Below, piece by piece: positions 14,736 through 36,600 of a DNA stretch of 64,000 nucleotides. Source of the stretch: Eledone cirrhosa (lineage: Eukaryota). Location of the stretch: the NCBI GenBank assembly GCA_964016885.1, contig OZ024741.1, forward strand, positions 356,314,001 through 356,378,000, in the 5' to 3' direction. Position 1 is the first letter of the stretch; each line of letters starts with the position of its first letter. The notes under the pieces are model-generated. The model had not been told where the DNA came from, did not search any database, and saw only the letters and a list, made by a program, of their open reading frames with translations. The position numbers were made by a program, and so were the translations under genes.

Positions 14736-14889
14736 TTCATTATTTAACGATCGTTTCTAGGATATATATGTGTTAGAATTGGCATGCATATTCAACAGAT
14801 CTATGTACAAAATTATACAAAATTATACAAACTATCAAAATTAAATATACATACCAACACATATATATGCCGTCTTCAGAAATAATGAA
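14736..14889 (-). ncRNA. Variant hammerhead ribozyme, sense copy in the 3' pLTR
   Basis: 10-bp stem I UUCAUUAUUU/AAAUAAUGAA; CUGAAGA-C; stem II includes the 13-bp AUAUAUAUGUGUU/AACACAUAUAUAU; A-GAAA-CGAUCG-UU. Confidence 0.78.
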
Positions 14890-17022
14890 ATATATTTATT
14901 GATAATAACAACAATTCAAAATTACAGGTCTGTTTGGGAACAGAGTTCAAATTGACCAATGAAAACACAAAAAGTTTATACAGTTAGGTGTATGTATATA
15001 TGTAAGTAACTTCGTTCACAGATATGCATAAAAATATATGTTCACATGCATACGCATGCCGAAAAGATGTATGTAAATACAAAAATTCAGGGCTAATGTC
15101 TCTGTATGTTTATAATCTACAGATAAAATACGTATACGCATATAAACATATAAATATAAAAATAAATATATACACATTCATATACTCACACATATACATA
15201 CATTCACACACACACGCGCGTATACGCATAAACATACACACAACCACAAACATACATACACACACACACTCCCACACACATATATGTGTATATACTATTA
15301 TCATAAGCATATGGACATTAATGCGCGCACATAAACACTGCCACACATATTTAGATCCAGATACAGAAAGTAGGTGGGGGGGAAGAGGTCAGTATTTAGT
15401 GGTGTCAGCAAACTGCCTATTTATAAATGTATCTATAAATTTAGAAATAAAAAGAAAAAGAAAAAAGAAAAATATTAAGAAAATATATATATATATATAT
15501 ATATATATATATATATATATATATATATATATATATATATATATATATACATATATATATATAAACAAGTAAAATATAAAATATACATCGATATACATAC
15601 ATATACATATATATATATATATATATATATATATATATATATATATATATATATATATACATATACATACACATATACATAAACACATACATACACATAC
15701 GTATACATACACACACCATATAAATACATATACACATACACACACGCATACATATAGAGACACATACATATACACATATAAATACATAGACATATACATG
15801 TATACACACATATATATATACATATACACACATAGATATATATATACATTCACAACACATATATATATATATATATATATATATATATATATATATATAT
15901 ATATATACATATATCTATACACATATATAAACACACTCATGTATATACACACATACATATACATACCCACACACATATATATATATATATATATATATAT
16001 ATATATATATATATATACACACATACATACACACATATACACATACACACATACAAAGATATATATATATATATACACATACACATATAATATAATAAAT
16101 ATATATATATATATATACACACACATATATATATATACACATATATATATATACACATACATACACATACATACTCATACATAGATATACATATATACAC
16201 ACACACACACATACACACATACATATACGCATATATACACATACATACACATCCATGTATGCGCATACACATACAAACACAACCACACGCTTACACAACT
16301 CAGACATACATAAATAAAGGGATATACATACACATATATACATATATAAATAGAGATACATATACACATATAAATATATACACACATACACACACACACA
16401 TATACATACACACACATACACACATACATATATATACACACACATATATATACATATATATATATATATATATATATATATATATATATATATATACATA
16501 TATATATAAAAATAAAGAAATAAAAGAAAGAAATAAATTAATTAATTAATACACACAGTCAGACAAATATGCACACACATACATATACACACATATATAC
16601 ATACATATATATATATATATATATATATATATATATATATATATATATATATATATATATATATACACATACATATACATACATATATATATATACACAT
16701 ACACACATCAACTACAAATATATATATATATATATATATATAAATGGAAAGTTATACTTAAATTGTTGGGTTACAACTAGTAAATATTTATAACTGATAT
16801 AAAAGCACTCAACAAGTATTTGGAGTATATTTACGATACTAAATAAAAGGAAACTACATCTACAAAACCACATCTATTTCATCATACATACCTCAGGGAC
16901 ATCACACTAACAATATGTTATGCCCTCCCCAGACAAAATACTGCCAAATCAACTTTTCAAATACAAGTCGATGTTGAACGGTATGTCAAATCTATTTATT
17001 TATAAAACTGTCTATATTGTAT

Positions 17023-17087
17023 TTTGTCTGAAGAAGGCACAACACATCGTCAATATGACATCCCTGAAACATATATAATGAAACAAA
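17023..17087 (+). ncRNA. Degenerate hammerhead-like motif in a small insert between TA tracts
   Basis: UUUGU-CUGAAGA-AGG...CCU-GAAA-CAU(auaua)AUG-AA-ACAAA. The essential U16.1 is replaced by A, so it is probably dead. Confidence 0.35.
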
Positions 17088-17599
17088 TATGGCCCTACAA
17101 ATACAGCCTCCATTCATTCAATATCGTATATATATATATATATATATATATATATATATATATACATATATACACACACTCACATATACATGCGCACATA
17201 CGTACATATATACACATACACACATATACACTTAGACGTATATATGCGCATACATATACATACACACATATACCCACATAAATACATAGAAACATACATA
17301 TATATATATATATATATACATATATATACATATATATATATATATATATATACATATATACACACAATCATACACCCTTATTTACATGCGCACATATGTA
17401 TTTTTATACTCACATACAAACACCCAAACATACATACCTACCTACATATATATACATACATCCACGCTTACAAATACAAATAATAATAGGGGGAAGGGGG
17501 GGGGGGGGGGATTATAGTAAATATAGGTTTCAAGAAACATAGAATATTAATCTGCATTTAGATCATAATATGTGTTTACATAGTAGTTTCAGTATTAGG

Positions 17600-32795: not shown

Positions 32796-32927
32796 ATATA
32801 TATATATATATATATATATATATATATATATATATATATATATATATATATATATATATATATATATACATATATATATATTTATATATATGTATGTATA
32901 TATATATATATATGTATGTATATATAT

Positions 32928-33247
32928 ATAATTGAATATACAAGGGAGATGAACACTAATACAAACATACATGTGTCCGAATTGTAAGGACCAGGTTTGC
33001 TAGGGTGAAAAAGTACTTACAGCAATATGGTTTGCCAGACTTAATTTAAAGTAGTAAATTAAAAAAAATTGGGCAACTGCCTGAAAATATAGGTTTGTTA
33101 TTATTTTTTTTAATTTACTACTTTAAATTAAGTCTGGCAAACCATATTGCTGTAGTTAGTATTTGTTCACCCTAGCAAACCTGGTCCTTACAATTCGGAC
33201 ACATGTATGTTTGTATTAGTGTTCATCTCCCTTGTATATTCAATTAT
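32928..33247. repeat. About 140-bp-arm fold-back element embedded in (TA)n
   Basis: 32928-33068 is the near-perfect reverse complement of 33104-33247. Confidence 0.85.
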
Positions 33248-33609
33248 ATATATATACATATATATATATATATTAATATATATATACATATATATATATA
33301 TATAAATATATATATATACATACATATATATAAATATATATATACATACATATATAAATATATATATACATACATATATATATAAATATATATATACATA
33401 CATATATATATATAAATATATATATACATACATATATATATATACATATATATATATAAATATATATATACATATATATATATATATAAATATATATATA
33501 CATACATATATATATATAAATATATATATACATATATATAAATATATATATATATATATATATATATATATATATATATATATATATATATATATATATA
33601 TATATATAT

Positions 33610-36600
33610 ACGAAGAAGAGGTTCATGAAACGGAAATGCGGGTATAAAGAATTAATTAGGTAACAATTGTTTCTATAGTGTGTGGGTTACCTATACCTCG
33701 CTATTTGTATAATATAAAAATATTATCATAAATCGTAGGTACACTGTAAGAGAACACACCATGTCGTCAGACCTTTATGGTAGAATGATAGGAAAATATT
33801 TTATACACTAGATATGAGAGAAAGTAGGATGTAGGAAGGGAAGAGTAAGAGGGAAGCGAGTAAGGGGGAGGCAGTCTTAGAATTCAAGACTGTCAGAGAA
33901 GTAGATATTGTATAGAAGAAAATGTTCTGGCAGCAGTTAGCTAAATGAGGCGTGTTAGGGTTGGCGGGGGAAGTAAAAACTTCTAGTTGTGTTGTTTGGA
34001 CAAAATTTAGTTAAAGGGGTCAATGTAGTACAGAATTACAGACAAGTTATTGGGGCTATTATAGTAGCAGGATATTTCTAAAGGGGTCTAAAAAACAGTG
34101 TTTAGTGCTATTATTATAAAAAGCCATATCGTGTGTATAAACATATAAAAATATGAAATAAAAATTAAAATTAAAATTTGCAAATGGTGGTGTAAAAAGA
34201 TAACATTACATGCATTTAAAAAAAGAAAAAGTCGTTTTTAAACGATGGTTACAGTAAAGTGAACGTTCAATTTTGCTGTTCAAAAGTTCGTTTTCCGACG
34301 TTAAAATGCAGTATATCTCCATATTGCATAATTTACAAAATCGGTGATTTTGCTTATATGCTGGCGCAACAACAATAATTTGCCAATCAAGGGAGAATGC
34401 TTGATTGTTTTTCCGAAGCTGCCAGGCTTTATCGGCGAGAGTTGTTACGGAGCGCATTTTCTCATGCTTGATCTAAGATCGATGTTGGTATAGGCGAGCT
34501 TTGAAAGACGTAATACCATTTGTTGGTTCCGGAATTTATTGTACATCGGTAGACAATATTGCGTGCTAGGCATTGGTTATTCAATGGGTACGAACCTGGT
34601 TTATTGCAGTTACAGTTATTTTTATGTTTTGCAGTAGAATCCTGGATAGTTTGGTGGGGTTGTAGCTGCGTGTTAGTGCGTTGTATGTCGCTATGCTGGT
34701 GCGCTGTGTCATTAGGGATGTACTTATTTAGTATTGTTGAGTTGAGTTTTTTAATCAGTTGTTCTGTTAGGTGCAGTGGAGTATGAGAGTCTAATGGTGC
34801 GCGAGTTTAAGATTTTATAGTATTTATGTGAAGTTGTAAAGTGTTTATTGATCAGTGTATAGAATTGTGAGATAATCTTAGTGCTAATAGAAATATTGTA
34901 CACGGGGTTATACCATATGTACTCTCTACGTCTAACTCTATTTGTTGGTTTGCACCTATTATTATGCCTATTAATGTGCCTGTGTGGTGTAATACTAGTT
35001 CGACTTAGATGTGATTTATTCATAGTACCTATGTGGTTATCTTCTAGATATTCTATTTTCTAGCAGTAACCAGCTTTTCTAAGTGCGTCGTTATAATACT
35101 CAGCATGCTCGTTGAAGGTCTGCAAATTAGACGATAGTCGGGAGATCCTTATGGATATATTTTTAGGGATAGATTTAATAATGGAATGGGGATGATTCGA
35201 TCTTACATTAACGTACTTGAGATTTTCATTAAGTTTGTGAAATGGCTTTATATTACCGTTATTAAGGTTGAAGGTGATATCCAAGAAATTGACCACTTTA
35301 AGATTGTGTTCGAAGGTAATATTAAGTCCTAGTTCTAAGAAAAGTTTCCTAATGTTTTTACGTCGCCTTTCTAGGTTTTGTTTGTTCATATTTTTGACTA
35401 ATAGGAGTGCATCATCACGGTAGATTCCACCGTGGAGGTCAATAAATTCGCTCTGGAGTCTGTGAGCTATATAGATTCCAACCAAATCTGTAACTTCCGC
35501 CGAATCATTAGAACCCATCGTAATGTCAAATTCTGAGGGTCTATCTCTGCGGACCCAATAACTATTTTCAAAATTGACTACTGTGCGTCTAGCTTCAAGT
35601 ATAATATTAATATCCTCGTTTGTGAGGTCCGAGTTGGCCTTAGCGAATGAGAGGGCCTTATGCAGAGTTTCAGGTGAAATAGAGGAATAGTATTCATCTA
35701 TATCGAATTGAATAAAAGATTTGTTTTTGTCACTGATGTTATTGAACCAACTTATTGCCTGTTGAGTATTACCCCATAATTTAATATCTACCTTAGCCTT
35801 AACTTGGGGGATAATACGATCTAATATGTACTTACTGATTCTACCTATATCAGATTTTGAAGGACATATTAATCTAATTTTAGGGTTAGTATCGAAGTTA
35901 GCCTTATGGTCCTTCAAATTAAAAGTCTGTGTAGCTGGAGATAGGGGTTCCGTTCTGTCGTCGATTTTCAGTTTCTTAACAATATCACATGCTGCGTTAT
36001 TAATGTTGGTTAGTGTAGTTGCGTTTTTTTTGTACTTCGTATGTAATTCCTTACGTATAAAATTATTATACGTTTCTACATCTAGGGTATATAGATTCGA
36101 TGTTTTGTCTGCCTTTATAATAATTCCTTTGGTATTTCTCAGGTTGTCGAGTAGAGTTTTAATCTCCCGTTGCAGTTCATTTTTCCTTCCGTTTGCAAAT
36201 TTGATTCCGGTTATCATTTTCATTAAGTCTTGCTCGAAAGAATCCAGAAAAGGGTTAGAGGGTGGGTTTTTGTAGGATTTGAAACGAAACTTATCGTTGT
36301 TGGTGTCGGAAGTTTGTGTAATCATATTCCTATCGAAGTGAAAGGCCTTCCATCTAATCCGCCGAATAAATTCGTTGGTCCTTTGTATCATACCAAGAAT
36401 GTATTCTTTTTTACCTTGTATGGGTATGTTTTTTAAGGACATACCACAATGATGTTTTTCCATTTCAGAGACGTAGGTTGATAGGTTACTCGACTGTAAA
36501 GGAGTGTGAAGAATTAATAAATCTGTGCTCCAATGTTACTAGGTAGTCGCATTGGATGGAGTCAACCGACGTCGGAGATTGCTCAACGTATAATAAAATA

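What the first reader, a model, noticed from the sequence alone, without database searches (positions are those of the whole stretch)
14736..33774. A shared non-canonical hammerhead core (C.A at the base of a long stem II, palindromic stem III, GUU site) in three unrelated repeat families
Seen: three families with no primary similarity fold the same way, stem I-CUGANGA-C-[stem II with a 40-110 nt interior]-A-GAAA-[palindrome]-UU-stem I'. Family A (14736-14889 minus; 21355-21508 plus) has a 10-bp stem I and CGAUCG. Family B (25114-25196, 24870-24952, 21943-22025) has ACUUC/GGAGU and CUAAUUAG. Family C (33658-33774) has AGGU/ACCU and CAAUUG. The stems differ in sequence yet still pair, while the C and A are invariant. 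Established: canonical HHRs have an R10.1-Y11.1 (usually G-C) pair at this position, and PLE pLTRs carry minimal type I HHRs whose palindromic stem III permits dimeric folding. Inference: A and C lie in the sense pLTR of Hydra-like PLEs, so this may be a clade-specific HHR subtype that standard descriptors miss, and B may be the pLTR of a third family. I cannot confirm whether it has already been described.
Basis: partly seen in the sequence, partly recalled or inferred. Interest (0 to 1): 0.85.

Follow-up and report, generated by a model that had tools for sequence, protein, structure and literature searches.

The report
Hydra-retroelement hammerheads with C·A junction
Three repeat families here carry a real hammerhead-ribozyme motif, predicted to self-cut, with a C·A mismatch and an unusually long second stem; this is a lineage-specific form of a motif already known from Penelope-like jumping genes, not a new ribozyme class.

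Summary
In detail: six motifs lie at the stated coordinates, all with C after the core and A before GAAA; 50 shuffles give none. A and C sit at the 3' end of Hydra-clade Penelope-like elements and are related (RT 52% identical), so not independent. B is a ~530-nt ORF-less tandem repeat with ~10,000 genomic motif matches, retrozyme-like rather than a pLTR; its stem II covaries. C·A is not invariant or clade-wide. In 800 kb of unselected genome, 47 hammerheads show U·U 15, G-C 8, C·A 4, and 0 of 55 motifs beside other Hydra elements have C·A. A mismatch here is in print: U·U in 14 of 26 Hydra rows, C·A in a Chara element, and the 2014 descriptor allows an extra base on both sides. Descriptors miss these because of stem II length. 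New: C·A plus a 50–115-nt covarying stem II, ~25,000 matches in one genome. Cleavage is untested. The scan has reported Penelope hammerheads in other genomes, but not this form.

The parts
14736..14889 (-). Family A hammerhead motif, sense copy at the element's 3' end; core 14879-14873, C 14872, A 14758, predicted cut 3' of 14746
   Evidence: same motif downstream of the ORF on the same strand in 17 of 20 other genomic copies
14673..14962 (-). 3'-terminal segment (pLTR) of Hydra element A, followed by (TA)n
14963..18557 (-). About 3.6-kb microsatellite-rich 3' region of element A between ORF and hammerhead
   Evidence: collinear with other copies at about 88-98% identity
18558..21044 (-). Intact 828-aa RT-endonuclease frame of Hydra-clade PLE A (RWR, DKT, CxCx5C)
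   Evidence: clade features from PMC8557442 section 11; at least 150 genomic matches at 98-100%
21282..21571 (+). Inverted copy of the element A 3' end at its 5' side, holding the second A motif (21355-21508; predicted cut 3' of 21498)
   Evidence: 100% identical to 14673-14962
21883..22193 (+). Family B repeat fragment; motif at 21943-22025 with core change A6G, likely inactive
24550..24955 (-). Family B repeat fragment; motif at 24870-24952 (predicted cut 3' of 24875)
24954..25253 (+). Family B repeat fragments, inverted to the previous one, ending in (TA)n; motif at 25114-25196 (predicted cut 3' of 25191)
33658..33774 (-). Family C hammerhead motif at the 3' end of element C (predicted cut 3' of 33662), followed by (TA)n at about 33610
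   Evidence: same motif about 400-510 nt after the endonuclease in 13 of 15 copies
34215..36535 (-). RT-endonuclease coding region of Hydra-clade PLE C; open for 491 aa (35060-36535), then a stop and further breaks
36622..36757 (-). 5' partial pLTR of element C; starts inside stem II, so it holds only the 3' half of the hammerhead
   Evidence: 99% identical to 33608-33743
28680..28722 (+). Comparator: hammerhead motif with U·U at the same junction, in a ~424-nt tandem unit (28265-28991)

Best explanation
These are type I hammerhead motifs at the 3' ends of two related Hydra-clade Penelope-like retroelements (A, C) and in a ~530-nt non-coding tandem repeat (B) that is likely mobilised by such elements; they are predicted to cut after GUU, likely as dimers. 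Shown: the sequence, the position in the elements, tandem organisation of B, compensatory changes in stem II, and retention of C/A across diverged subfamilies. Inferred: two motifs in one transcript pair their palindromes to form a stable stem III and cut, releasing the element RNA or, for B, a ~530-nt monomer that could be circularised and copied back into (TA)n by a Hydra RT-endonuclease. The first step of stem II is a tolerant 1x1 position (G-C, G·U or U·U in other Hydra elements). In one lineage of this genome it became H·A (mostly C·A, also A·A and U-A), stacked on a long stem II. The 3' A is the more fixed partner.
For: Motifs far above chance. Hydra features RWR/RWK, DKT, CxCx5C and (TA)n flanks. 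Linkage to ORFs in 17 of 20 (A) and 13 of 15 (C). B spacings 523-533 nt (10 spacings), longest stop-free frame 72 aa, 3' ends mostly at unit position 62 or 177 before (TA)n in 30 loci; 521-571 nt in other subfamilies. Family B alignment of 21 sequences: 96.6% of cells paired, 7 of 17 pairs with two-sided change, 45 such cells versus 14.3 shuffled, slid controls 35-46% paired. Genome counts for B: C..A 10,230; C..non-A 44; non-C..A 507. Stem III: monomer hairpin +0.8 to +1.7 kcal/mol versus self-duplex -6.4 to -10.0. Published parallel: an axolotl hammerhead with U·U at the stem II base cleaves 22% as a monomer and much better as a dimer (PMC7229834, passages).
Against: No cleavage data. The hammerhead fold is 1.3-3.8 kcal/mol above the predicted MFE for the monomers. 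None of the window's copies has a full sense tandem partner: A's second copy is inverted, C's upstream repeat is half a motif, two B copies are inverted and one has A6G. Two high-copy Hydra families of this genome showed no intact motif at their apparent 3' ends, so the motif may be dispensable. Covariation controls do not correct for relatedness. The family A consensus fold preferred an alternative pairing of the core. The tree is the quick search only, without bootstrap.
Confidence: 0.72

Rival explanations
1. Register shift: C is the known extra base between A9 and 10.1, the canonical R10.1-Y11.1 pair is intact one step out, and the only new feature is an extra A before G12.
For: The pair beyond C/A is purine-pyrimidine in A (G·U, A-U, G-C), B (G-C in 21 of 21) and C (A-U). 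The 5' base varies at subfamily level (A·A tandem subfamily of B; A·A sister of C) while the 3' A stays. Cervera 2014 gives CUGANGA-H-G...C-GAAA as consensus.
Against: Other C·A families of the genome have C-G or U-A at that step (F4, F10). In other Hydra elements G-C, G·U and U·U replace each other at the same position in front of the same Y-R and G-C pairs, which argues that the slot is 10.1/11.1 itself. Structurally both readings describe one 1x1 position.
Confidence: 0.3
2. The motifs are catalytically dead or nearly so, and are kept as a structural signal (RT binding or priming site) or by hitch-hiking in young repeats.
For: PLE min-HHRs cleave poorly in vitro (PMC4209133, results section). 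GUU and loss of G10.1 both lower rates (recalled, no call). Some active-looking Hydra families showed no intact motif.
Against: Core, GAAA, palindrome and UH stay fixed while stems turn over across many subfamilies and families; pure hitch-hiking does not explain compensatory change.
Confidence: 0.2
3. Family B is the pLTR or tail fragment of an autonomous PLE not yet found, and tandems are head-to-tail tail fragments.
For: B shares (TA)n targeting, fixed 3' ends and inverted partners with PLEs. Two of 30 B loci lie just upstream of Hydra RT frames.
Against: Those two RT regions are only about 67-73% alike and no B copy was found at their 3' ends. B copies run past one unit length into their own sequence at constant period, up to 8 motifs in one 7.7-kb array.
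Confidence: 0.12
4. A distinct new hammerhead subtype specific to the Hydra clade, arisen convergently in three unrelated families.
For: C·A is the majority state in 7 of 28 families collected (sample enriched for C·A by my searches).
Against: 0 of 55 motifs beside other Hydra ORFs; 0 of 26 published Hydra rows; A and C are relatives; C·A also occurs in a non-Hydra Chara element.
Confidence: 0.05

Closest known systems
Hammerheads of Hydra-clade Penelope-like elements (Craig et al. 2021, PMC8557442, File S2)
   Same: Type I, sense strand, 3' pLTR, palindromic stem III, (TA)n insertion, frequent non-paired 1x1 at the base of stem II (U·U in 14 of 26 rows).
   Different: Junction is C·A (or A·A), not U·U or G-C; stem II interior 52-115 nt against loops of 10 nt or less; element A has a ~3.6-kb 3' region.
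PLE-X1_cBra hammerhead of Chara braunii (same file)
   Same: CUGAUGA-C, G-C-starting stem II, A-GAAA, palindromic stem III: the same C·A junction.
   Different: Short stem II (6 bp, 7-nt loop), GUC-type site, endonuclease-less plant element; tabulated but not discussed in the passages I read.
Minimal hammerheads of metazoan PLEs (Cervera and de la Pena 2014, PMC4209133)
   Same: Dimer-dependent design; extra base after A9; descriptor allows extra N10 and N11; U·U rows for Hydra magnipapillata and Drosophila willistoni in Fig. S3.
   Different: Consensus has G10.1-C11.1 directly before GAAA, stem II of 7 bp or less, loop 2 of 10 nt or less and almost no stem III.
Non-LTR retrozymes (Cervera and de la Pena 2020, PMC7229834; bioRxiv 10.64898/2026.07.22.740005)
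   Same: Family B: non-coding tandem units, one type I hammerhead each; axolotl HHR_Amex2 has a U·U at the stem II base and cleaves best as a dimer.
   Different: Unit of 520-570 nt (170-400 nt in the 2020 paper; 51-972 in the preprint); long stem II instead of a short stem with loop-loop contact; Hydra-like (TA)n targeting; circular RNA not shown.

Membership tests
Type I hammerhead ribozyme | Core CUGANGA, GAAA and UH around three stems, open stem I | tested here: met
   met in 5 of 6 copies, the 21943 copy has A6G
Type I hammerhead ribozyme | R10.1-Y11.1 pair adjacent to A9/G12 | tested here: not met
   C·A in all six; an R-Y pair follows one step out; natural U·U exceptions are accepted members
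Type I hammerhead ribozyme | Covariation of stems | tested here: met
   B: 7 of 17 pairs with two-sided change; A: 7 of 39 predicted pairs; C not formally tested
Type I hammerhead ribozyme | Match to an Rfam hammerhead model | tested here: not met
   no hammerhead family at E<=1
Type I hammerhead ribozyme | Self-cleavage at NUH | not testable with these tools
   needs an in vitro assay or RNA end mapping
Hydra-clade PLE (elements A, C) | Single RT plus C-terminal endonuclease frame with RWK-like and DKT motifs | tested here: met
   A: RWR, DKT; C: RWK, DKT (criteria)
Hydra-clade PLE (elements A, C) | CxCx5C linker | tested here: met
   A: CNCRNKANC; family C copies CNCTKPGSC
Hydra-clade PLE (elements A, C) | Insertion into (TA)n, pLTR or inverted 5' copy, 3' hammerhead | tested here: met
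Hydra-clade PLE (elements A, C) | Phylogenetic placement against reference PLE clades | tested here: inconclusive
   tree of Hydra-like proteins only, no outgroup or named Hydra references
Non-LTR retrozyme (family B) | Tandem non-coding units, one type I hammerhead per unit | tested here: met
Non-LTR retrozyme (family B) | Expressed linear and circular monomer RNA | not testable with these tools
   no RNA holder listed
   0 of 55; 0 of 26 rows

The most novel reading that the evidence does not exclude
One Hydra lineage and its ~10,000-copy retrozyme run on an efficient hammerhead that has replaced the G10.1 metal-binding step with an H·A (possibly protonated C·A+) pair and uses a long, covarying stem II in place of the loop-loop contact or as the Hydra RT docking site, making it an untested natural hammerhead class with about 25,000 copies in one genome.
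Probability: 0.2. Interest if true: 0.62.

Novelty: new variant of a known kind. Interest (0 to 1): 0.38.

Why it matters
It widens the natural range of the hammerhead core junction (C·A and A·A beside the known U·U) and shows that hammerhead censuses capped at short stem II miss tens of thousands of motifs in this genome. Family B offers a ready test system: a high-copy retrozyme-like repeat with Hydra-type (TA)n targeting, natural C·A and A·A subfamilies, and rich covariation. It bears on the open question of what hammerheads do for Penelope-like elements, but does not answer it.

Tried and rejected
Rfam scan: only microsatellite-driven miRNA hits. Pfam does not recognise either Hydra frame. 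The short-gap C..A pattern gave 293 matches against 518 in its control, so its count is not used; only individual families from it. The first census scan dropped family A by demanding 3 consecutive stem II pairs and was relaxed. A single-protein scan of metagenomes found nothing; the alignment scan gave 77 loci, 22 without a motif under the scan; 17 of these were inspected and showed further U·U, G-C and one A·A-like motif, no C·A. Alignment A2 had one row on the wrong strand and was replaced by A4. The UU group count ignores unlabelled G-C rows and is not used. No RNA holder listed for family B; contigs of two runs of unknown kind showed no ends or informative joints. Linking families F4 and F10 to an ORF was not achieved. 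Lunse et al. 2017 (PMC5785218) is not held, so I cannot say whether it shows such variants. Paper searches for a description of this form; none surfaced one beyond the papers cited. No covariance model was built, since interiors of 52-115 nt do not align across families.
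Full report
Observation. It also found a seventh motif at 28680-28722 with U·U at the same junction. 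A scan needing a perfect core gave 6 hits in the window and 0 in each of 50 shuffles. The copy at 21943 has CUGGUGA (A6G). Rfam finds no hammerhead in the window. Predicted cut sites lie 3' of 14746, 21498, 24875, 25191 and 33662.

Families A and C. An intact 828-aa frame at 18558-21044 (minus) and a broken one from 36535 to about 34215 (minus) carry RWR/RWK and DKT; the CxCx5C linker is seen in A and in family C copies. Craig et al. 2021 (PMC8557442; I read section 11, search passages and supplement parts 1, 2 and 52) name these as Hydra-clade marks together with (TA)n insertion. Element A has at least 150 genomic matches at 98-100% identity. In 17 of 20 copies extended downstream, motif A lies on the same strand about 3-6 kb from the start of the fetched stretch, so the microsatellite-rich 3.6 kb is part of the element. 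The copy at 21355 is the inverted 5' partner, 100% identical. Motif C follows the endonuclease in 13 of 15 copies; its upstream repeat (36622-36757) begins inside stem II. The two RTs are 52% identical. In a quick tree they fall in one 6-row subclade (support 95) with an element whose motif has A·A and an 88-nt interior, inside a 14-row branch that also holds an Argonauta protein. The host is therefore likely a cephalopod (inference). Shared C·A in A and C is best read as inherited.

Family B. In 30 loci the repeat is a 530-nt unit: ten motif spacings of 523-533 nt, copies running past one unit into their own sequence, 3' ends mostly at unit position 62 or 177 followed by (TA)n, longest stop-free frame 72 aa. 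Two loci lie beside Hydra RTs, but those RT regions are only about 67-73% alike and lack B at their 3' ends. Genome-wide patterns gave 10,230 matches with C..A, 44 with C..non-A and 507 with non-C..A, controls 0. The last set includes a coherent A·A subfamily in tandem arrays and scattered U copies, probably CpG decay (inference). In 21 sequences chosen by me for diversity, 96.6% of cells pair, 7 of 17 pairs change on both sides, the second stem II pair takes four forms, the first is G-C in 21 of 21, the 3' A is invariant and the C is A in 3. Shuffles do not correct for kinship. This fits a non-LTR retrozyme (PMC7229834, abstract and passages; bioRxiv 10.64898/2026.07.22.740005, part 1 and passages); expression is not shown.

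How special is C·A? In 80 unselected 10-kb stretches the scan found 47 motifs (0 in each of 10 shuffles): U·U 15, G-C 8, A-U 6, U-A 5, C·A 4, A·A 3, A·G 2, A·C 2, G·U 1, C·U 1. Across all loci then held, enriched for C·A by my searches, 28 families had majority states C·A 7, U·U 8, G-C 6, others 7; long stem II occurs with C·A (4), U·U (3), G-C (4) and A·A (1). Long-gap C..A patterns gave 12,480 matches (control 220) and 2,092 (control 62); with B that is about 25,000. Beside Hydra-like ORFs from metagenome contigs, 55 of 77 loci gave 55 distinct motifs: U·U 24, G-C 19, G·U 6, A-U 2, four others that may belong to neighbours or be spurious, C·A 0; interiors were under 30 nt apart from one likely spurious hit. 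U·U and G-C alternate among sister branches. So C·A with a long stem II marks a lineage in this genome, not the clade.

Prior art. Craig File S2 lists U..U at this junction in 14 of 26 Hydra rows, none with C·A, and lists C..A for PLE-X1_cBra of Chara. Cervera and de la Pena 2014 (PMC4209133; main text parts 1-2 and the supplement PDF text) note a conserved base between 9 and 10.1, show U·U rows in Fig. S3, and give a descriptor with 'a possible extra N10' and 'extra N11', loop 2 of 3-10 nt, stem II of 3-7 bp and gaaannuh. These motifs escape it by stem II length and palindrome size, not by C·A. Perreault 2011 (PMC3088659, section 8 and passages) reports natural U10.1·U11.1 as the best-tolerated mismatch, which makes C·A a worthwhile test. 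An axolotl retrozyme hammerhead with U·U there cleaves 22% as a monomer and better as a dimer. Ten paper searches found no description of the C·A long-stem form; Lunse 2017 could not be read, figures are not held, and preprint supplements are closed, so this is a limited negative.

Mechanism. Stem III is unstable as a monomer hairpin (+0.8 to +1.7 kcal/mol) and stable as a self-duplex (-6.4 to -10.0), so cutting likely needs two motifs, as for other PLE hammerheads. For B, tandem units supply them and would release 530-nt monomers for circularisation and Hydra-driven reinsertion (inferred). The window's own copies lack a full sense partner and are probably idle products. Whether C·A is the 10.1/11.1 pair or two extra bases around an intact R-Y pair is open: A, B and C all have R-Y one step out, two other C·A families do not. 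Against a vital role, two high-copy Hydra families showed no intact motif at their apparent ends, and a third could not be followed past its microsatellites.

Verdict. Real, conserved by structure and abundant, but a new variant of the known PLE and retrozyme hammerheads; catalysis untested. Interest 0.38.

Noticed in passing
window 28265-28991 and 25334-25591: A second retrozyme-like repeat: ~424-nt tandem unit with a short-stem U·U hammerhead (28680-28722), ending in (TA)n; relatives elsewhere are spaced 421-467 nt.
   Followed up: partly
L414 and L415, about 1370-1410; L396 and L397, about 1650-1750: Two high-copy Hydra families whose apparent 3' ends lack an intact hammerhead: one has a degenerate core (U4A-like) with U·U, the other only a GAAA-led hairpin.
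   Followed up: partly
G000, e.g. L225-L253 (family F4): Another abundant C·A family (63-nt interior, C-G first pair, GUA site), often in inverted pairs; no linked ORF found.
   Followed up: partly
window 49157-55180: Remnants of a third Hydra-like RT/endonuclease (30-45% identity to A and C) near inverted repeats 48342-48982 and 52235-52829 with hammerhead-like cores at 48633 and 52533.
   Followed up: no
window 25569-27689 and 30649-32818: A 2.1-kb G-rich inverted repeat pair (91% identical) with broken frames and no Pfam hit in the six frames tested.
   Followed up: partly
window 29245-30726: 591-nt tandem repeat, about 2.5 copies at 99% identity, with no hammerhead found by the scan.
   Followed up: no
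window 8086-9252 and 5969-6475 (minus): C2H2 zinc-finger array with a partial 2-kb tandem duplication (4262-6257 and 6459-8410).
   Followed up: no
window 13774-14536 and 12477-13301: A 763-nt self-palindromic stretch (96%) next to a frame with a weak GIY-YIG match, possibly another PLE end.
   Followed up: no
window 754-1809, 46403-47422, 61022-61768: A Tc1-like transposase frame (weak DDE_3) and two non-LTR RT fragments (RVT_1).
   Followed up: no
family A motif, stem II base: A conserved C·C mismatch two pairs beyond the C·A junction in most of 12 diverged copies.
   Followed up: no
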